Below, piece after piece: positions 2,110 to 11,746 of a DNA stretch of 24,585 bases. A model generated the notes under the pieces. It worked only from the letters and a program-made list of their open reading frames with translations. It did not search any database and was not told the DNA's origin. The translations under genes and the position numbers were made by a program. The stretch spans positions 1 to 24,585 of the forward strand of contig JBGSMV010000067.1 in assembly GCA_041739995.1 (NCBI GenBank), read 5' to 3'. Numbering within the stretch: position 1 is the first letter of the stretch; each line of letters opens with the position of its first letter. This DNA comes from Bdellovibrionota bacterium (GTDB lineage Bacteria; Bdellovibrionota_C; UBA2361; JBGSMV01).

Positions 2110-2202
2110 TGCTGTAGGGACCTGAGCGAGCGTGAATTTGGCTCTGTGATTTTGGTGTCTGCGCTACCCAGTAGGCGCACAAGGCCAGGCAGAAGAAAGG
2201 CC

Positions 2203-2868
2203 ATGCAGAAGAACGAACAGTCAGCTTTAGAGCAACAAACATCTTCAGCCGAATTGATCGGCGCACTGCTGCGATCGCTGGCCCACACTGTGCGCACACC
2301 ACTTTCAGTCGTATCAAATGAAATTCAATATTTTTCGTCTCTGTTGCCTAAGGGAGAGAGCGACCGCGCGCTTACGCGCTGTAGAGATATCGACCAGTTG
2401 TTACGTCGCTATGCGCAGATTTCGTGTGAGGCGCCTTGTTTCGAAGAAGTATCGTTTGCGGAATTGAGAGCGCTCTGTGAGGGGGCCGCCAGCCCTAGTC
2501 CTGGCGAGGCCAGCGCTGACACTCAAGAGAGAAAGGTCAGGATAGACCGGGCGCGGGTGGTCGAACTCTTCGCGCTAGTGCCGAAAGTATTTGGTGCCGA
2601 CTCGGTGTCACTACAGCGACCGTCGTTTGATGAGCATGGGTGTGCTTTTATGTGGCGCGGTGGCGCCCCTGCTTCCTCAAACTCTGAGGCAGTTGGAGAA
2701 GGGCAGATGCATAGTTCGCTCTATCGCATGTTGATGGTCAAAGGCGGTGCAGATATTCCCGAAGCAATTCTGGTTGATGCGTTAGTTCTTACTCTTGGTT
2801 TCATGTTGCAGGCTAAGCTCGAAGATAGCGAGTTGGCGATTCAGGTGAATATTGGCAGATCCGTGTAG
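2203..2868 (+). CDS. Sensor-less HisKA-type (H-box) protein with degenerate ATP-binding domain; putative pseudo-histidine kinase/phosphotransferase
   Basis: H-box LAHTVRTPLSVV (His codon 2284-2286); no N, G1 or G2 boxes visible; ATG 2203 follows AGAAAGG; ends 6 nt before a response regulator. The ORF track gives an alternative GTG start at 2146. Confidence 0.65.
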   Translation: MQKNEQSALEQQTSSAELIGALLRSLAHTVRTPLSVVSNEIQYFSSLLPKGESDRALTRCRDIDQLLRRYAQISCEAPCFEEVSFAELRALCEGAASPSPGEASADTQERKVRIDRARVVELFALVPKVFGADSVSLQRPSFDEHGCAFMWRGGAPASSNSEAVGEGQMHSSLYRMLMVKGGADIPEAILVDALVLTLGFMLQAKLEDSELAIQVNIGRSV

Positions 2869-2874
2869 GGGCAT

Positions 2875-4251
2875 GTGGTGACGACTGAAATTTCTAAGGC
2901 CAGACTTTTGTTGGTTGATGATGACGCCGATGTAGTGGTTAGTCTCTCACGTGCACTGCGTTCTTCTGGTTTTGAAGGGCAGATTGAGGGAGTGGGAACG
3001 GCCGAGAAGGCTCTCACTATTTTGCGCGACAAGGATATTCACGTTGCGGTTATCGATCTTTCGCTCTCAGTAAAGGAAGGCGTCGAAGGTGGGTTTGGTC
3101 TGTTGCGATCTATCATCACTGAGTTTCCTTTGTGTCGCCCAATCGTTTTGACGGGAAGTGCGAGCCGCGAGCATGGCATTCGGGCGTTACACATGGGTGC
3201 GGCGCATTTTTTAGAGAAACCTGCGGACGCAGCCCATCTTCTCGCACTAATTAGAGACTCCATTCAGCAATCCTACTTGAGACGCTCCTATGAGCAGGCA
3301 CGGCAAGAGTCAGGCGGGCAGCTCGATCAATTGATTTTCGGCACCTCGCCACTCGCGGTGCGATTAAGAGAGGAAGTTCAGTTCGCCGCGAGCAATAATC
3401 AGGCTCTTCTGATATCGGGTGAAACGGGTACGGGCAAAGGTCTGTGCGCCAGGGCCGTGCACCTTGAGAGTCAGCGCAGTGGATCGCGTTTCGTGCGTTA
3501 TCAGCCGACGTTTGCCGGTCCTGACTTAGTGAATAGTGATTTGTTCGGGCACGAAAGGGGTGCGTTTACGGGGGCAACTGAACTTCGTCGCGGACTTTTA
3601 ACCGAAGCTCAAGGCGGGACGTTGTTTTTAGACGAGGTGGACGAGCTTCCGCATGAGACTCAAGTGACGCTTTTAGGGGTGATTCAAGAGCGCAAGTTCA
3701 GAGCGCTTGGATCAAGTAAGGAGCAAGAAGCGAATGTACGTTTGATATGTGCGTCGAATCAGGATCTTGCTCGTTGTGTAGAGGTGGGCAAGGTACGTAA
3801 GGATTTTTTTCATCGTATTGCACACGCTCAAATTCATTTGCCGCCATTAAGAGAGCGCATTGAGGATGTGCGAGTGCTTACTGCTGCGTTTCTTGCTGCG
3901 TTACGGGCGCGTGAGCAAGTCTCGGTGTTCGAGGTAAGTGATCGGGCTTTTGTGGTGTTGATGCAATACGCATGGCCCGGAAATATCCGAGAGCTTGAAG
4001 CGGTGATTGAAGGTGCTGCTTACCGAGCGCAGTTCAAGAGGCGCTCGGTGATCGAGGAAAGCGATATTCAAATTCGGCAACCGGCCGGACAAGCTAAGCC
4101 GCAGGTGTCGTTTGCTGGACAGGTGGAGGCGTTTAAGCTTTCGCTTATTCGAGCAGCGTTACAGAGAAGTGATGGCAATCAGGCCAAGGCGGCAGAGGAG
4201 TTGGAGCTCGATCGTTCGACGCTGCGACGTATTCTCGCGCGCGAGGGCTAG
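2875..4251 (+). CDS. Sigma-54-dependent response regulator (NtrC family: REC, AAA+, Fis-type HTH)
   Basis: REC motifs LLVDDD, VIDL, LTG, EKP; Walker A GETGTGK; GAFTGA loop; Walker B LFLDEV; WPGNIREL; HTH GNQAKAAEELELDRSTLRR. Confidence 0.95.
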   Translation: MVTTEISKARLLLVDDDADVVVSLSRALRSSGFEGQIEGVGTAEKALTILRDKDIHVAVIDLSLSVKEGVEGGFGLLRSIITEFPLCRPIVLTGSASREHGIRALHMGAAHFLEKPADAAHLLALIRDSIQQSYLRRSYEQARQESGGQLDQLIFGTSPLAVRLREEVQFAASNNQALLISGETGTGKGLCARAVHLESQRSGSRFVRYQPTFAGPDLVNSDLFGHERGAFTGATELRRGLLTEAQGGTLFLDEVDELPHETQVTLLGVIQERKFRALGSSKEQEANVRLICASNQDLARCVEVGKVRKDFFHRIAHAQIHLPPLRERIEDVRVLTAAFLAALRAREQVSVFEVSDRAFVVLMQYAWPGNIRELEAVIEGAAYRAQFKRRSVIEESDIQIRQPAGQAKPQVSFAGQVEAFKLSLIRAALQRSDGNQAKAAEELELDRSTLRRILAREG

Positions 4252-4304
4252 GAATTGTTGGTCTTCATGCTGGCGGTGGACGCAAGAAAGTGGGGCGGAA
4301 AGAA

Positions 4305-4395
4305 AACTGAGAGGCTTGCAGCGTGCATGCCTTATGTAGAAAGTCGTTGTGGGACGTTCGGGAAGAGATTCCAGAAGGCCACAAACCTCTCAGTT
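4305..4395 (-). repeat. Long inverted repeat (stem-loop)
   Basis: AACTGAGAGGCTTG (4305-4318) and CAAACCTCTCAGTT (4382-4395) are 13/14 complementary. The stem extends to 18 bp (4305-4322/4378-4395) on the minus strand, where the three A/C mismatches become G-U pairs. Confidence 0.6.
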
Positions 4396-4423
4396 GCAAA
4401 GAAGCTCAATCTGACTTGAGCCG

Positions 4424-4469
4424 AAGAAAGGACAAAAAGCGGCCGCGCTCGACTTGGAGACGCGGCCGC
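4424..4469 (-). terminator. Rho-independent terminator of the minus-strand orphan ORF
   Basis: 9-bp all-GC stem GCGGCCGCG (4439-4447)/CGCGGCCGC (4461-4469), followed on the minus strand by TTTTTGTCCTTTCTT; starts 16 nt after the stop codon at 4486. Confidence 0.8.
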
Positions 4470-4485
4470 CGGGGGAGAGATATCG

Positions 4486-5112
4486 TTACTTCGCGTGAGC
4501 GAACTTCTTCCAAGCTGCCCGAACCCCCTGACTCTGGGCGCCCGCATAGAACGGCCACTGCAGGGGCGGGCGATCCATGCGCTGCTCCAGGTAGTGCGCG
4601 ATCCCGCGGGTGCCGCGCTTGCCGACCAACGGCTCCATCGGGAACGAGATGCGACTGCCGTTGGTTCCCACGACTCCGACGAGCATCGGGGAGCCGCGCT
4701 CGACTTCTTGGAGGTCGAACGCCGGCACGAACTCGAGCTCCAGCATGTGATCGTGGCATGCCCTGACCAGCTTCTCGTTGCCGAGACTGAGCTCGCCTGA
4801 GAAGGGCGGTTCAGCCTGAACTCCGCCGTAGAGCGGGTCGCCCACGCTGGCGCCGTGGTACGCCGAGATGGCGAACAACTGCCCGGCCAGAATCCGCGCT
4901 TCTCGTTGGCTGGCTGGCCCTTCGACCTTGATGCGGCTCCTGACGAAGGCCTCGAATGCTTCGACGCCGACTCGTGCGTTGAGCACGACGGGCGTCGGAG
5001 TCCCCGCACTGCTCGCGCATGGTGGGCTGCCTCCCTTCAAGAGCTTTCTGGCGGGACGGGTGCCGCGAACGACTGCGACGCCGCCCGGACCTGAATGATG
5101 TGCTGATCCCAT
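4486..5112 (-). CDS. Hypothetical protein (208 aa), high-GC orphan
   Basis: ATG 5112 preceded by AAGAAGGA; strongly G/C-ending codons in this frame; intrinsic terminator immediately downstream; no recognisable family motif. Confidence 0.7.
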   Translation of the reverse strand: MGSAHHSGPGGVAVVRGTRPARKLLKGGSPPCASSAGTPTPVVLNARVGVEAFEAFVRSRIKVEGPASQREARILAGQLFAISAYHGASVGDPLYGGVQAEPPFSGELSLGNEKLVRACHDHMLELEFVPAFDLQEVERGSPMLVGVVGTNGSRISFPMEPLVGKRGTRGIAHYLEQRMDRPPLQWPFYAGAQSQGVRAAWKKFAHAK

Positions 5113-5129
5113 TTTTCCTTCTTTCTTTG

Positions 5130-5336
5130 CTAAGGAGACCCTACGAGAGATCGTCTGTATACGTGTCAGACGGATCAAGAAGTGCCAAGTGGTTCTCCAG
5201 TTCACTTGACTCTTCGTTCATCCGGCGTGGTGGTGCCGAATGAACGAAGGGCCAAGAGACGAGAGCGACAAATGGAACGATCTTGGGCCAATCGAGACTG
5301 GTGCAACTTGGATCAAGAACGCACGGTCTTTCTTAG
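5130..5336. ncRNA. Candidate multi-helix structured RNA (5' leader of the orphan ORF, or independent ncRNA)
   Basis: Four mutually compatible nested helices: 5130-5145/5320-5336; 5149-5157/5167-5176; 5185-5201/5297-5311; 23-bp hairpin 5205-5227/5234-5256. Confidence 0.55.
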
Positions 5337-5507
5337 ATTTTACAAGAGAGATGTACTGCTATGAGATTTCACACCCTGAGAAGTATCAAAATAATCATCT
5401 TTGCAAACAATGAAACCTTAAAAAATGCACGCTGCTGCCTCTCGCACTCAGCTCCGGGGTGGGAGAATTGCTAGGTTATAATGGACTGCGCATGAGTAGG
5501 GTGCGCT

Positions 5508-5535
5508 CGAGAAAAGTACGCCCGAGAAAAGTACG
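5508..5535. repeat. 13-bp tandem direct repeat CGAGAAAAGTACG x2
   Basis: Exact copies at 5508-5520 and 5523-5535. Confidence 0.8.
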
Positions 5536-5645
5536 AGAGTCAGCTAAAATGAACTATCTACCCTGTCCGGTGACTAAAAGAGCGTGAGGACAACGTCGAA
5601 AAACTCTTATGAAAACCGAGGAGCTTATAGTGTTATGAAGCCAAG

Positions 5646-5665
5646 CTCCTAACAGTCTCCTAACA
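5646..5665. repeat. 9-bp direct repeat CTCCTAACA x2, 11-bp period
   Basis: Exact copies at 5646-5654 and 5657-5665. Confidence 0.7.
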
Positions 5666-6004
5666 TTGGTCGCCAGCCTAGTAAAGCTGCTGAATTTTTG
5701 CGTTTTTACTCATTAAATGAGGAGTTTCCGTGACAGCAAAATTTGGAAGCGTGGGTATTCTACCGTGGGTAAGTCGGCTTGTCCGGTCCAGATGGCCCCA
5801 AGTTTCGGTGAATGTTGGTTACGCCCGCGAAGTCTTCATGGTGTAGCGAGGGGAGGTCGGTGGGTGCAGAGGGGTTCAATCGAACTGTAGATTGCTCGCT
5901 TAAGACATGGTCAAAATGGACTCTAATGCGAGTAGCATAGCTGTGATGAAGTATGTTCCAGTGATGGTTCGTTCTGAGGCTGCTCTTATAATTGGAAAGT
6001 TCTC

Positions 6005-6325
6005 ATGGTTAGAAATATTTCTCCTAAAGATCTTAAAGCGCGACTCGATAGCGGGGAGGACCTGCAGCTGATTGACGTGCGGGAAGAAGATGAGCGAGAA
6101 ATCGCATCCATTGGCGGTGAGTTAATCCCTTTGCAAACGCTTCTAGAGCAAGAACAGAAGATTCGACGCTCCGGCATGGTGGTGGTCTATTGTCGTAGCG
6201 GCGGAAGAAGTTCGCGTGCAGTAGAAGCGCTGCAGAACGAGAAGAAGTTTACCAATCTGTGGAACCTAGACGGCGGCATCTTAGCTTGGAGCGATGATGT
6301 TGACCCCACAGTGCAAAAATATTGA
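6005..6325 (+). CDS. Single-domain rhodanese-like sulfurtransferase
   Basis: LIDVRE, active-site loop YCRSGGRS, NLDGGILAW...DPTVQKY (resembles the C-terminal rhodanese domain of MoeB/MoeZ). Confidence 0.92.
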   Translation: MVRNISPKDLKARLDSGEDLQLIDVREEDEREIASIGGELIPLQTLLEQEQKIRRSGMVVVYCRSGGRSSRAVEALQNEKKFTNLWNLDGGILAWSDDVDPTVQKY

Positions 6326-6363: not shown

Positions 6364-8016
6364 GTGACCATAACAGAACACCTTACCTTTGATGAATTTG
6401 TAGCGCCTAGTTCTGGCGACTGGGAATCGGCGTGTAAAAAGTCAACAAAGCCGTCGGCTCAAGTGTCGACCACAAAGGCGGCAGCGAGTGAATCAATCCT
6501 CCCAGGAGATGTTCGCATTTCCGCGCTTTATGTTGATCGCCCCGAGTCCTCAGCTAAGAGTCAAATCATTCAAGCCAACCTTCCTGCAGCCATTAGTGCT
6601 CGTATTGATGGCGCAAATATCGATATATGTGTGTCGCAGATCGAGCTAGCCGCTCATGGCGGTGCTTCAATCGCTACGCTTGTTCTCGACCAAGCTTGCC
6701 AGAGCGGAGATGCGCTCAGCAAGTCACTTGTGTGCAGAGAGGGCTGCTCTGTCGATTCAGTAGATGAGCTCGCTGCGTTACTCAAAGTGGCGCGTGAGAA
6801 GAGCCTAAACATTTCAATTGAATGTGGACGTAGCGGTGTTGCAATTGCGGCTATGCTCGCCGCACTTCCAAAGAATCTTTCAAGTGTGGTGACGCAACTG
6901 CGCTATGACCCGTTTTTTGTCCCCGCGGCTAAAGAAGATGCGGCTGAGCAAAATGCGGCACCCGTGTCTTGCTCAACTCCACCTGACGAGCTTGTGATGC
7001 TTGCAGAAGTAACGAGCAAGCTTCCCGCGCTTGATTCTTGGGTTTGCTTGGACACTAGAGTCATCACGGAGAGCGGCGGCAGTGTTCCTCAAGAGCTAGC
7101 CTATTGTTTAGCGGGAATGGCTGAGGTTTTACGTGATTGTGAGGCTAACAGCCTTTCGTTCGACTTGGTTCGAGACAAAGTGTCCATTGTTACTTCAGTG
7201 GGCCCAGATATTTTCGTAGAGATTTCAAAGCTACGAGCACTGCGAACTTTGTGGCGTTTTCTTTGGAAGCCGCTTGGTGGGTGTGGAGCACCAGAGATTG
7301 TCGCGGTGAGTTCGCTTTGGAACAGAACTAAAGATGAGCCGCACGTAAACCTGTTGCGTACTGGCGCAAGTGCGTTAGCGAGTGCGTGCGCAGGAGCTAC
7401 GCAAATTGAGCTAATGCCGTTTTCCTTGCCCGGCTCAGAAGACGAAGCGCTGGCTCGGCAGCTTGCAGTTAGCTTTCAGCAAGTGCTGAGATACGAGTCC
7501 ATGCTTGAAGCCGTTACTGACCCTGCAGGTGGGAGCTTCTATGTCGAGCACCTGACCAAGCAGTTGGCAGAATCAGCCTGGACACTATTTCAAAGGTATG
7601 AACAAGACGGTGGACTTTTCCAGCTGCTTGCCAATGGGACTTTGCAGCAAGAAGTGAAGGCCGAGGCTCAAGCGAGAATTCAAAGATTCAACGCCGGCCA
7701 GGATGTTCTAGTGGGACTGAATCGATTTCGAACTGAGGAGAAAAGCAGTTCATCTAAGGCGGCTTCGTCGAATGTAGCTATTTCTAAGTTAGCTAAAGAG
7801 CGCGAGCTGGCGCTTCGTTCTCGAAATCCTCGGTCAACAGTGGATCTTTCTAAGTTGTCAGCCACAGCTTTAATTCAAGCAGCCAAGCAGTCTGCTTCGA
7901 TATCTGAACTTCTTTCTGGGTTTAGGAGTGTGGTGGCGCAGCCGTCGTGCGTGAGCTTCCAGCGTCTCTGCCTGCAAGGCATTTTCTCCATGAGTGAGTC
8001 TAAGGAGGGCGCATGA
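6364..8016 (+). CDS. mutA: Methylmalonyl-CoA mutase small (beta, non-catalytic) subunit, divergent
   Basis: [53 protein letters not shown] overlap with the large subunit. Confidence 0.85.
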
Positions 8017-10273: not shown

Positions 10274-11746
10274 ATGATGGGGCGTCAAACCTACCTCGCC
10301 GCGCTGGGTGTGGTGTTTTTGCTCTCTGCTGCGCTACGGGTTGCGGCATCGTCGGGTGACCTTTGGCTCGACGAGATTATGTCGCTTAACGCTGCGCGCG
10401 GCTGCCAGAATATTCTTCAAATATTTTCGCTGAATCACGACAATAACCATCTGCTCAATTCAGTTTGGCTGTTTCTGCTGAGTGGCGTTGATAATCCAAT
10501 GCTGCTGCGGGGATTCTCGCTGTTGAGTGGGTTTGGGACGTTGTTCTTGCTGCTGACTTGGCCTGAGACGAGAACGCGTGGTGCCGAAGGAGGCTCGCCG
10601 CTAACGGATACTTTTGACATCGAGCGAGTCTTGCGGATGCTAATGATTGGCGCTTCCTATCCGTTGGTGCTGTATGACAGTGAGGCTCGCGGGTATGCCA
10701 CTATGATGTTTGGCGGACTCTTGGCGTGGAGAGTCTTGTGGGTCGGCGCGTTTGGGTTTCGAGCAGCGCTCATCTTCTGGATTGGATCTGGTTTGTGTGT
10801 GCTTGGACATTCATCTGGGGTGCAGTGGCATTGTGCACTTCTCGTTTGGTCTCTAGTGACTGTGTGGCTCTCTCCGGCGCGAGGAGTGATAGGTCGAAGT
10901 CTCGCTTTGTTTCACCTGCCGGTAATCATTGGCGTCGGTATTCTTTGGCTTGGATTCATTTCTCAGTTACCTGCCGGTAGTGGTTCACTTCGTTCTTGGT
11001 ATGAGGTGCTGGTCAGTGCGCTGAGCATTGGGTTTGGTGGGCCGCTGGTGTCTGAGCTAGCCCCAGAGGTTTCTTTGTTGGCCTTGCTGATCGCGATTGT
11101 GGTCTTGGTGTTGATAATTCGCGCGTTAGTGAGTCAGTGGAATCAGGACCGTCGTTTTGCGATTACTTGCCTCACGGGCATCGCCCTTGTTCCCATTGCG
11201 GCGGTGGTATTGTTTGATCCGCGCGTAATTTACGAGCGTTATTTTCTGTCGAGTCTTGTATTCATTTATTTCCTGTTGGCAAGATTCGCCGCTGATTTGT
11301 GGCACAAAAATTCTGTTGCGAGAGCGGTAGTCGCAGTGGCGCTTGTGATGTTTGTGATTGGACAAGCACTGAACTTAGCTTCGTTAATGGCTCATCATCG
11401 TGGAAGCTATAAGTCTCTGTTGGTCGAAGTGCTTGCGGTGGATTCCGCAGATCCCTTGGTGGTGACGAGAGATCATTCTTTTAGAATTGATTTGGTCTCG
11501 AGATACTATCAACAACAGATAGAAGGTGGTGAGCGCTTGGTGTTCCAACATGACCCACTAGCTCGCTGGCACATAGTTCATTCCCAAGACAGCGAATGGC
11601 TGCCACCACCGTTCATTCCCGGTCCTGAAGGCGCAAGTTTAGAGAAAGTCTCATGCCGTTTCTCAGCCCCGCTTTCGGGTTGGTCCTGGTGCGCCTACCG
11701 CGCTGCCGTAGAAAGGGAACTTGAAAAGGTACCACCTTCCTTTTAG
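10274..11746 (+). CDS. Polytopic membrane protein, putative GT-C-fold (PMT/ArnT-like) glycosyltransferase
   Basis: LWLDE after the first TM helix, HDNNHLL, SEARGY, ERY; about 10-12 hydrophobic segments and a soluble C-terminal tail. Confidence 0.7.
   Translation: MMGRQTYLAALGVVFLLSAALRVAASSGDLWLDEIMSLNAARGCQNILQIFSLNHDNNHLLNSVWLFLLSGVDNPMLLRGFSLLSGFGTLFLLLTWPETRTRGAEGGSPLTDTFDIERVLRMLMIGASYPLVLYDSEARGYATMMFGGLLAWRVLWVGAFGFRAALIFWIGSGLCVLGHSSGVQWHCALLVWSLVTVWLSPARGVIGRSLALFHLPVIIGVGILWLGFISQLPAGSGSLRSWYEVLVSALSIGFGGPLVSELAPEVSLLALLIAIVVLVLIIRALVSQWNQDRRFAITCLTGIALVPIAAVVLFDPRVIYERYFLSSLVFIYFLLARFAADLWHKNSVARAVVAVALVMFVIGQALNLASLMAHHRGSYKSLLVEVLAVDSADPLVVTRDHSFRIDLVSRYYQQQIEGGERLVFQHDPLARWHIVHSQDSEWLPPPFIPGPEGASLEKVSCRFSAPLSGWSWCAYRAAVERELEKVPPSF

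What the first reader, a model, noticed from the sequence alone, without database searches (positions are those of the whole stretch)
5130..5336. ~207-nt multi-helix structured RNA directly upstream of an orphan ORF
Seen: four nested, mutually compatible helices. These are an outer stem CTAAGGAGACCCTACG (5130-5145)/CGCACGGTCTTTCTTAG (5320-5336), a hairpin 5149-5176, a stem CCAAGT..CCAGT (5185-5201)/ACTGG..ACTTGG (5297-5311), and a 23-bp hairpin 5205-5256 with 19 Watson-Crick pairs whose 4 mismatches are all G-T or A-C. The 10-mer GGATCAAGAA occurs twice (5172-5181, 5310-5319); on the minus strand each TTCTTGATCC leads into the 5' arm of a helix, like a duplicated binding module. The fold closes 18 nt before the ATG at 5112, leaving the SD free. 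I recognise no riboswitch, T-box, ribozyme or housekeeping RNA consensus. Inference: an undescribed cis-regulatory leader or the RNA partner of the orphan protein. G-U counts do not resolve the strand.
Basis: partly seen in the sequence, partly recalled or inferred. Interest (0 to 1): 0.75.

Follow-up and report, generated by a model that had tools for sequence, protein, structure and literature searches.

The report
Conserved leader hairpin before rare gene
The stretch is most likely the untranslated leader of a very rare bacterial gene. Its only solid feature is one long hairpin that a sister species also keeps, so it is a modest new regulatory-RNA candidate rather than a complex new RNA.

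Summary
The 207 nt fold better than shuffles: z -3.7 on the plus strand and -5.4 on the minus strand. Against 1500 GC-corrected windows of the same genome it is only in the top ~1%.

Two elements are robust:
- a 22-bp hairpin at 5205-5256, with its imperfect extension 5182-5278;
- a small hairpin at 5153-5171.

Rfam has no match.

The downstream "orphan" ORF (4486-5112, minus strand) is a real gene of a very rare family: 5 representatives among 1.84 billion. The only other species of the genus carries a syntenic homologue. Upstream of it lies a 23-25-bp stem whose 5' arm aligns with the G000 hairpin arm (4 of 500 shuffles score as well). In both species the stem is more stable on the mRNA-sense strand. 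Conserved 17-20-nt inverted repeats bracket gene plus leader in both species.

Best reading: a lineage-specific 5' leader hairpin acting in cis.

The parts
5205..5256 (-). Long hairpin: 22-bp stem with an 8-nt loop. This is the robust core of the finding.
   Evidence: Pair probability is 0.93-1.0 in all contexts. Inverted repeat I1. It is one of 37 such hairpins in the genome. The arm duplex is -33.1 kcal/mol on the minus strand and -28.5 on the plus strand. Its 5' arm aligns with the stem arm upstream of the G001 homologue.
5182..5278 (-). Imperfect extension of the hairpin into a rod of about 97 nt.
   Evidence: The 109-nt piece 5178-5286 folds at -47.4 kcal/mol, z -6.09. Extension helices have probability 0.5-0.99 depending on context and temperature.
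5153..5171 (-). Small hairpin (5-bp stem, 9-nt loop) between the rod and the ribosome-binding site.
   Evidence: Probability 0.78-0.99 in all contexts. G001 has a small hairpin in the corresponding interval.
5130..5145 (-).
   Evidence: It pairs with 5320-5336, but the probability swings from 0.97 to 0.01 with flanking context. No counterpart was seen in G001.
5320..5336 (-).
   Evidence: Same calls as the other arm (54, 85). If the TAAAAT box is a -10 element, transcription would begin inside this arm (inference).
5337..5342 (-). TAAAAT box directly upstream of the structured region; candidate -10 element.
   Evidence: The block CTCT..TAAAATC is present in both species directly upstream of the structured region (sequences; read by eye). 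The promoter scan did not call it.
5116..5121 (-). Shine-Dalgarno-like GAAGGA, 3 nt before the ATG at 5112.
   Evidence: Sequence. Unpaired in the MFE.
4486..5112 (-). Gene for P0001: 208 aa, with a basic glycine/arginine-rich N-terminal tail and a predicted helical body.
   Evidence: GC at codon positions 1/2/3 is 0.69/0.51/0.78, and it is the only positive codon score among the overlapping frames. Homologues are P0002-P0005 and P0010-P0012. A syntenic homologue exists in G001. No Pfam, NCBIfam, PADLOC, PHROG or PDB match.
4427..4469 (-). Terminator-like GC-rich hairpin followed by TTTTT, downstream of the P0001 stop codon.
   Evidence: site 4450-4437, minus strand. The alignment shows the stem plus U-run. 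Sequence.
5425..5444 (.). Right arm of the inverted repeat that brackets leader plus gene.
   Evidence: I9. A 17-mer unique in each genome, 16 of 17 identical between species.
4309..4328 (.). Left arm of the same inverted repeat, 1136 bp from the right arm.
   Evidence: G001 has the same pair 1074 bp apart. The G-to-A difference is present in both arms of G001.
5172..5181 (.). Copy 1 of the 10-mer GGATCAAGAA.
   Evidence: D10. Occurs 19 times in the genome. Not seen in the G001 leader.
5310..5319 (.). Copy 2 of the 10-mer GGATCAAGAA.
   Evidence: D10.

Best explanation
Window 5130-5336 is part of the 5' untranslated leader of a minus-strand gene (4486-5112). That gene encodes a 208-aa basic protein of a very rare, lineage-restricted family. 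The functional core is not a four-helix fold. It is one long hairpin (22 bp, 5205-5256, continued as an imperfect rod 5182-5278), followed by a small hairpin (5153-5171) and a free ribosome-binding site.

I propose that the hairpin is transcribed with the gene and acts in cis on the mRNA. A duplex this long is most likely a processing or stability determinant, for example a substrate for RNase III, which this genome encodes. Alternatively it is a protein-binding operator that sets how much protein is made.

Shown: the hairpin, its rarity in the genome, a related stem at the corresponding place in the sister species, and greater stability on the mRNA-sense strand in both species.

Inferred: that it is transcribed, where the promoter lies, and the whole mechanism.
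For: 1. Gene and orientation. P0001's frame has a coding GC pattern and the only positive codon score among the overlapping frames. It has homologues, an SD-like GAAGGA, and a terminator-like hairpin after the stop.
2. Structure. Minus strand z -5.43 against plus strand -3.72. The rod alone gives z -6.09. Hairpin probability is ~1.0 in all five contexts at 37 and 55 C.
3. Rarity. Only 37 hairpins of this class occur in 3.81 Mb, and this one is single-copy.
4. Conservation. G001, the only other species of the genus, has the homologous gene between the same flanking genes. At this divergence the methylmalonyl-CoA mutase small subunit is only 36% identical. The best local alignment of the two leaders joins the G000 hairpin 5' arm to the 5' arm of a 23-25-bp stem in G001. 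For the whole leaders, 13 of 500 shuffles score as well; for the arm alone, 4 of 500.
5. Pair comparison. Of 26 aligned columns, 14 keep the same pair, 5 differ on one side and still pair, 4 are whole extra base pairs in G001, and 3 are unpaired in one species.
6. Strand asymmetry in both species. Arm duplexes are -33.1 (minus) against -28.5 (plus) in G000, and -40.3 against -32.3 in G001.
7. Feasibility. An RNase III homologue is present in the genome.
Against: - Against real genomic windows the whole 207 nt are only in the top ~1%.
- The outer stem and helix 3 are not robust.
- Only two species are available, so no covariation statistics are possible. In the best-scoring alignment there is no two-sided compensatory substitution (0 of 26 columns).
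- MAFFT preferred a different alignment, and the alignment test used mononucleotide shuffles only.
- Much of G001's extreme z-score (-10.7 to -11.4) comes from a dispersed palindromic repeat sitting in the loop of its stem.
- No promoter was called on the minus strand upstream.
- The inverted repeats that bracket the module show no strand asymmetry and hint at DNA-level biology.
- A palindrome can also be kept at the DNA level.
Confidence: 0.45

Rival explanations
1. Non-functional structure. The hairpin and surrounding pairings are by-products of local duplications and palindromic-repeat activity in a long intergenic region, with no role of their own.
For: - The 207-nt fold is only in the top ~1% of genomic windows.
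- The G000 leader contains internal near-duplicates: CTTGGC.CTTC twice, TCGTTC(C)ATT twice and the 10-mer twice.
- Both genomes carry dispersed palindromic repeats, and one sits inside the G001 stem.
- There are no two-sided compensatory substitutions.
Against: - The hairpin arms remain recognisably similar and paired in two species whose other leader sequence is unalignable.
- The MCM small subunit of these two species is only 36% identical.
- One-sided differences keep pairing on the mRNA strand.
- This hairpin is single-copy, so it is not a member of the repeat families.
Confidence: 0.2
2. DNA-level element. The palindrome, together with the conserved inverted repeats that bracket gene plus leader, serves as protein-binding or recombination sites. 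Possibilities are an operator, a cruciform, or the ends of an invertible or exchangeable ~1.1-kb cassette.
For: - Inverted repeats of 17-20 nt lie 1136 bp (G000) and 1074 bp (G001) apart. They are unique in each genome and 16 of 17 identical between species, and the G/A difference is shared by both arms.
- They show no strand asymmetry.
- The interior has diverged far more than the repeats.
- In G001 a flagellin gene lies further along the minus strand, beyond the left repeat and the orphan gene P0009. This recalls Hin-type switches (recalled knowledge).
Against: - No recombinase or transposase domain is found in P0001 or in any large ORF of the window.
- The family has no invariant Ser or Tyr.
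- Contigs of two runs bridge both repeats only in the reference orientation, and no joints were reported. Contigs do drop rare variants.
- The two species have the same orientation.
- The hairpin stem itself does show mRNA-strand asymmetry.
Confidence: 0.15
3. RNA partner of the protein. P0001, through its arginine/glycine-rich tail, binds the leader hairpin of its own mRNA and autoregulates translation.
For: - Gene and hairpin are kept together in both species.
- The N-terminal ~45 residues are basic and predicted disordered in all full-length members.
Against: - There is no nucleic-acid-binding domain by Pfam, NCBIfam or PDB sequence search.
- The structure model is too poor to judge (pLDDT 45.3 and 43.6).
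- Nothing links protein and RNA beyond adjacency.
Confidence: 0.1
4. Independent small RNA on the plus strand, antisense to the P0001 leader.
For: The plus strand also folds better than shuffles (z -3.72). A plus-strand promoter-like site exists, but downstream of the region at 5368-5395.
Against: - The plus strand is less stable than the minus strand for the conserved stem in both species.
- No promoter-like site was found upstream on the plus strand, and no terminator-like site after 5336.
Confidence: 0.05
5. Ligand-sensing riboswitch-like multi-helix domain, as implied by the four-helix drawing.
For: The leader is long (about 220 nt), has several possible helices, and leaves the SD free.
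Against: - No Rfam match.
- Junction helices are unstable or unpopulated.
- Nothing but the hairpin arm and short boxes is conserved in G001.
- It occurs in one genus only.
Confidence: 0.03

Closest known systems
Long 5'-leader stem-loops processed by RNase III (E. coli rnc and pnp leaders, phage lambda N leader, T7 R1.1); recalled knowledge, no paper read here
   Same: A near-perfect duplex of about two helical turns in the 5' untranslated region of an mRNA, upstream of a free ribosome-binding site. The host encodes RNase III.
   Different: No cleavage or expression data exist. The sequence is unrelated to any described leader (Rfam). It is restricted to one genus and to one very rare gene family.
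5'-terminal stabiliser hairpins of bacterial mRNAs (ompA-type leaders); recalled knowledge
   Same: A stable stem close to the presumed 5' end. In G001 the stem begins about 10 nt after the conserved TAAAAT box.
   Different: In G000 about 80 nt separate the box from the hairpin. The transcription start is unknown in both species.
REP/BIME-like dispersed palindromic repeats and MITE-like foldbacks
   Same: Long intergenic palindromes. Both genomes contain such families, and one copy sits in the loop of the G001 stem.
   Different: The G000 hairpin is single-copy in its genome and in 60 relatives. It does not share the 9-mer building block of those repeats.
Hin/Gin-type invertible segments (about 1 kb, short inverted repeats, small gene and promoter inside); recalled knowledge
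   Same: A module of about 1.1 kb with a ~200-aa gene and its upstream region, bracketed by 17-20-nt inverted repeats. In G001 a flagellin gene lies a few kb away on the same strand.
   Different: P0001 has no serine- or tyrosine-recombinase domain. No second orientation was seen. The orientation is the same in both species.
Translational operators bound by the product of the same operon (ribosomal-protein leaders, phage coat-protein operators); recalled knowledge
   Same: A hairpin in the leader of a gene whose product has a basic, possibly nucleic-acid-binding tail.
   Different: The stem is far longer than typical operators. No binding evidence and no recognisable RNA-binding domain were found.

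Membership tests
Any Rfam family (riboswitch, T-box, ribozyme, housekeeping RNA, known sRNA) | Covariance-model score at or above the curated gathering threshold | tested here: not met
   There are 0 matches at gathering score in the whole window. In 4200-6100 the best sub-threshold hit over the region is a plant microRNA-precursor model at 21.7 bits against a gathering score of 245. The G001 leader gives only microRNA-precursor and snoRNA models, all below threshold.
Type III toxin-antitoxin (ToxIN-like) | Tandem array of antitoxin RNA repeats upstream of an endoribonuclease toxin gene | tested here: not met
   Tandem Repeats Finder finds no array in 5100-5340. The only repeat is a 10-mer twice, 138 nt apart. 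P0001 matches no PADLOC or Pfam model.
Retron (msr-msd RNA plus reverse transcriptase) | Adjacent reverse-transcriptase gene | tested here: not met
   P0001 and the neighbouring ORFs have no RT domain. PADLOC finds none.
IS110 bridge RNA / IS element end | Adjacent DEDD/Tnp recombinase or transposase, and several copies of the element | tested here: not met
   P0001 has no Pfam domain. The 351-nt region is single-copy in its own genome and absent from the 60 relatives searched. It has no match in the phage or plasmid collections.
Intrinsic terminator or attenuator | GC-rich stem immediately followed by a U-run | tested here: not met
   No terminator-like site was called in 5100-5400 on either strand. 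No T-run follows the hairpin on either strand.
REP-like dispersed palindromic repeat | Many related copies in the genome | tested here: not met
   The region is single-copy. Among the 37 long hairpins of the genome it shares no arm sequence with the two recurrent families.
RNase III-processed leader | Duplex of about 20 bp or more in a transcribed leader | tested here: met
   A 22-bp stem in G000 and a stem of 23 contiguous pairs in G001 on the mRNA strand. That the region is transcribed is inferred, not shown.
RNase III-processed leader | Cleavage by RNase III with an effect on expression | not testable with these tools
   There are no RNA data. The enzyme gene is present.
Invertible DNA segment (inverton) | Flanking inverted repeats | tested here: met
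   4309-4328 and 5425-5444, conserved in G001.
Invertible DNA segment (inverton) | Site-specific recombinase, and both orientations present in a population | tested here: inconclusive
   No recombinase domain is present in the window. Contigs of runs X2 and X3 bridge the repeats in the reference orientation only, and no joints were reported. Contigs do not show rare variants.

The most novel reading that the evidence does not exclude
The ~1.1-kb unit bounded by the conserved inverted repeats (4309-5444) is a self-contained module of a new kind. It comprises a very rare basic protein, its own long leader hairpin as cognate nucleic-acid target, and bracketing repeats. It would either flip or exchange as a cassette, or pair as RNA ends. 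That would make it a protein-plus-structured-RNA system unrelated to retrons, toxin-antitoxin pairs or known IS-encoded guide RNAs.
Probability: 0.1. Interest if true: 0.7.

Novelty: new member of a known kind. Interest (0 to 1): 0.35.

Why it matters
If the hairpin is a working leader element, it adds a lineage-specific cis-regulatory RNA in a little-studied group. The G001 record title reads "MAG: Bdellovibrionota bacterium". It also gives a handle on a protein family with only about ten known sequences among billions.

The bracketing inverted repeats are kept across a divergence at which housekeeping proteins are 36-61% identical. They are the more intriguing feature and could point to a switch or cassette mechanism.

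As it stands, the practical value is a caution. A drawing of several compatible helices, with a good z-score against shuffles, shrank to one conserved hairpin once genomic background, ensemble probabilities and a sister genome were consulted.

Tried and rejected
**RNA evidence**
- No RNA holder was listed among the 6 runs found, so expression could not be examined.

- X2 and X3 (same study) carry identical fragments that bridge both edges of the GC-rich gene and both inverted repeats.
- No variants were seen that could serve for covariation.
- No joints were reported.

**Fetching DNA for the other family members**
- Viral contigs: 0 of 14 pattern matches confirmed.
- Metagenome contigs: 0 of 159.
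- Genome contigs: 0 of 32.
- A metagenome scan with P0005 gave one locus, L008. It is spurious: a 25-residue match on the opposite strand of an 820-aa ORF.
- Genome contigs with the P0008 subfamily returned only G001's own contig.

**Protein function**
- No match in Pfam, NCBIfam, PADLOC, PHROGs or PDB sequences.
- The ESM Atlas gave weak PH-domain-like neighbours, with recognition below its own threshold.
- Two AlphaFold runs reached pLDDT 45.3 and 43.6. That is too low for a meaningful fold search, so none was run.
- P0009, the neighbouring GC-rich orphan of G001, is unrelated (hhalign probability 0.1).

**Other checks**
- A covariance model built from the G000 rod alone hit every long palindrome in L006 rather than specifically the homologous stem, so it was uninformative.
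- MAFFT alignments of the leaders were inconsistent with the best local alignment. I report both.
- My first hand alignment gave three 'double compensatory' pairs. They vanished under the scored alignment and are withdrawn.
- The ORF is open upstream to a GTG at the base of the stem in both species, but the extensions do not align. Third-position GC of the G000 extension, counted by hand, is about 0.55 against 0.78 in the gene. I treat the extension as non-coding.
- Read by eye, sigma-54 and sigma-28 promoter consensus sequences do not fit: the spacing is wrong.
- No tRNA lies in the window, and no direct repeats convincingly flank the module.
- One literature search (listing only) showed nothing on such elements in Bdellovibrionota. 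Another was rejected for syntax and not repeated.

Full report
**What is at the coordinates**

As RNA, the 207 nt fold as follows:

| Strand | MFE (kcal/mol) | Shuffle mean | z | Shuffles as good |
|---|---|---|---|---|
| plus | -77.3 | -60.7 | -3.72 | 0 of 200 |
| minus | -79.9 | -54.9 | -5.43 | 0 of 200 |

Dinucleotide shuffles are a lenient background. Among 1500 random 207-nt windows of the same genome, after regressing energy on GC, 16 fold at least as well as the plus strand and 11 at least as well as the minus strand. The region is therefore in the top ~1% of the genome. A reader scanning 24.6 kb on both strands should meet about two such windows by chance.

**Which helices are real**

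I computed ensemble pair probabilities in five sequence contexts, at 37 and 55 C.
- The long hairpin core (5212-5226 / 5235-5249) has probability 0.99-1.0, and its base 0.93-1.0.
- The small hairpin 5153-5171 has 0.78-0.99.
- The outer stem has 0.87-0.97 when the 207 nt are folded alone. It drops to 0.22-0.27 for 5100-5338 and 0.01 for 5080-5345, and is 0.72-0.93 for 5060-5400.
Enforcing it costs 6.4 kcal/mol on the plus strand and 6.2 on the minus strand.

The thermodynamic model instead extends the long hairpin into an imperfect rod, 5182-5278. The piece 5178-5286 containing it, folded alone, has z -6.09. Hairpins with at least 19 of 23 Watson-Crick pairs and loops of 3-12 number only 37 in the 3.81-Mb assembly. 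So the hairpin is unusual; the four-helix architecture is not.

**Known families**

Rfam gives no match at gathering scores in the window. Below threshold there are only generic hairpin (microRNA-precursor) hits. The 351-nt stretch 5100-5450 is single-copy in its genome and absent from the 60 relatives searched. The wider stretch 4400-5450 is absent from the phage and plasmid collections. No tandem repeat lies in the region, no tRNA in the window, and no terminator-like site at the hairpin.

**The gene downstream**

The minus-strand ORF 4486-5112 (P0001, 208 aa) is a real gene, on five grounds.
- GC at its codon positions is 0.69/0.51/0.78.
- It is the only overlapping frame with a positive codon score.
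- It has an SD-like GAAGGA three bases before the ATG.
- It has a GC-rich hairpin with a T-run after the stop.
- It has homologues.

It is GC-rich: 62-64% against 52.4% for the genome. An exhaustive phmmer search of 1.84 billion representatives found 5 proteins including P0001 itself, namely P0002-P0005 at 30-49% identity. A profile search added P0010-P0012. All come from short metagenomic contigs.

No Pfam, NCBIfam, PADLOC, PHROG or PDB-sequence match exists for any member tested. AlphaFold models are poor, with pLDDT 45.3 and 43.6. The family has a basic, glycine/arginine/serine-rich N-terminal tail and a predicted helical body. The invariant residues are few: R47, D92, F128, P130, P158, L162, G164, P187 and W201, and there is no invariant Ser or Tyr.

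**The sister species**

Among 91 genomes of the order and 124 of the phylum as sampled, only G000 and G001 carry the family. G001 is the only other species of the genus. Its contig title reads "MAG: Bdellovibrionota bacterium".

In G001 the homologue P0008 is 25% identical over 151 residues. By alignment with P0007, P0010 and P0012, its likely true start is the ATG at L006 7195, which is preceded by AAGGAG. P0008 lies between the orthologues of the same flanking genes: the sigma-54 response regulator (61% identical) and the rhodanese. G001 has extra genes in between, a flagellin and another GC-rich orphan.

A word-7 blastn of the two intergenic regions gives six short blocks, colinear and on the same strand:

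| Window (G000) | L006 (G001) |
|---|---|
| 5986-5974 | 7877-7865 |
| 5687-5649 | 7730-7691 |
| 5444-5428 | 7505-7489 |
| 4934-4917 (inside the gene) | 6831-6814 |
| 4325-4298 | 6448-6420 |
| 5049-5026 (weakest, E 3.8) | 7518-7495 |

The locus is therefore ancestral to the genus rather than a recent insertion. At this divergence the methylmalonyl-CoA mutase small subunit is only 36% identical.

**Is the structure conserved?**

The G001 leader folds very strongly: z -11.4 for 7270-7560 and -10.7 for 7185-7430. It has a 31-bp inner hairpin nested in an outer stem of 23 contiguous pairs.

The inner hairpin is a copy of a dispersed palindromic repeat built from tandem 9-mers. The same family occurs elsewhere in L006 and in G000. 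I read it as an insertion into the loop, and it does not count as conservation.

The outer stem does count. The best local alignment between the two leaders joins G000 5262-5235 (the hairpin's 5' arm and six preceding bases) to G001 7432-7397 (the outer stem's 5' arm). Of 500 shuffles, 13 score as well; for the arm alone, 4 of 500.

I mapped each base to its own partner and compared the 26 aligned columns.
- 14 keep the same pair.
- 5 differ on one side and still pair.
- 4 are whole extra base pairs in G001.
- 3 are unpaired in one species.
- None is a two-sided substitution.

An alternative alignment to a near-duplicate of the motif 30 nt upstream in G000 scores lower: 17 against 22, with 30 of 500 shuffles as good. 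MAFFT nonetheless preferred it, so the homology is probable but not certain.

Both leaders also have a small hairpin between the long stem and the ribosome-binding site. Both have a TAAAAT box just upstream of the structured part (by eye).

In both species the stem is more stable on the mRNA-sense strand:

| Species | Minus strand (kcal/mol) | Plus strand (kcal/mol) |
|---|---|---|
| G000 | -33.1 | -28.5 |
| G001 | -40.3 | -32.3 |

This is because most non-Watson-Crick positions are G-U on that strand.

**Inverted repeats around the module**

The arm at 4309-4328 and its reverse complement at 5425-5444 bracket leader plus gene, 1136 bp apart. G001 has the same pair 1074 bp apart, at L006 6432-6448 and 7489-7505. 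The right-arm 17-mer and the exact left-arm pattern each have no other close match in either genome, and the right-arm 17-mer is 16 of 17 identical between species. The single difference, G in G000 and A in G001, is present in both arms of each species. As RNA duplexes the repeats show no strand preference.

No recombinase is encoded in the window. Contigs of two runs bridge both repeats in the reference orientation only.

**Independent assemblies**

Contigs of runs X2 and X3 (one study) reproduce the junctions between the GC-rich gene and its flanks without any difference, so the locus is not an assembly chimera. A 151-nt contig identical to 5186-5336 occurs in a run of a second study. A 160-nt contig with 2 differences inside the gene occurs in a run of a third. 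These are single fragments and show only that the sequence exists elsewhere. No RNA run was available.

**Interpretation**

The best-supported reading is a 5' leader whose selected element is one long hairpin. Orientation, strand asymmetry in two species, and retention of the stem next to the homologous gene across deep divergence all point that way.

What the hairpin does is inference. A duplex of two helical turns in a leader is the classical substrate for RNase III, which the genome encodes, and such sites control mRNA stability or translation. A protein-binding operator, possibly for P0001 itself, is the main variant.

Two rivals remain open. One is a DNA-level role tied to the bracketing inverted repeats. 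The other is no function at all. With two sequences, no transcript data and no access to the other family loci, neither can be excluded.

**Verdict**

The finding is a new, narrowly distributed member of a known kind: a structured mRNA leader.

Noticed in passing
G000 contigs C1:7732, C46:28839, C20:24691, C42:80748, C48:40581, C64:294634; L006 2-62, 3708-3828, 7310-7386, 9106-9216: A dispersed family of long palindromes built from tandem 9-mers (of the type CTTTGTGGT / CTCTGTGGT and their complements) is present in both species of the genus. One copy sits in the loop of the G001 leader stem.
   Followed up: partly
G000 contigs C28:16492, C39:64478, C64:245779, C64:317774, C67:109494, C7:21874, C77:6009: A second recurrent hairpin family shares the arm TTTCACAACCCTGCTAG-like. 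It accounts for seven of the 37 longest hairpins in the genome.
   Followed up: no
window 5649-5687; L006 7691-7730: A conserved 40-nt block (77.5% identical between species) contains direct repeats of TGTTAG about 11 nt apart: two in G000 and three in G001 (by eye). It looks like a regulator-binding site upstream of the module.
   Followed up: no
window 4309-4328 and 5425-5444: Conserved inverted repeats bracket the gene and its leader in both species, with a base difference shared by both arms. It is not explained whether this reflects a cassette, an invertible segment, or paired RNA ends.
   Followed up: partly
window 5504-5535: A 15-nt unit CGCCCGAGAAAAGTA is repeated 2.1 times in tandem in the long spacer upstream of the rhodanese gene.
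   Followed up: no
window 5100-5340: Five GATC sites lie in 241 nt, against about 1 expected. Only 62 of 15,783 non-overlapping genome windows have as many.
   Followed up: partly
window 5113-5205; L006 7196-7282: In both species the reading frame of the gene stays open upstream to a GTG at the 3' base of the conserved stem. The two extensions do not align, and I treat them as non-coding.
   Followed up: partly
L006 3837-6153: Between the response-regulator and P0008 genes, G001 carries a flagellin gene and a second GC-rich orphan (P0009, 205 aa). P0009 is unrelated to P0001 by hhalign, and both genes are missing from this position in G000.
   Followed up: partly
window 5186-5336 and 4839-4998: Single short contigs occur in runs of two other studies. 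One is identical to the 151 nt 5186-5336. The other covers 160 nt inside the gene with 2 differences. No flanking pieces were laid from these runs.
   Followed up: no
window 2146-2868 and 10274-11746: Two sizeable ORFs (240 aa and 490 aa) within otherwise housekeeping operons have no Pfam match.
   Followed up: no
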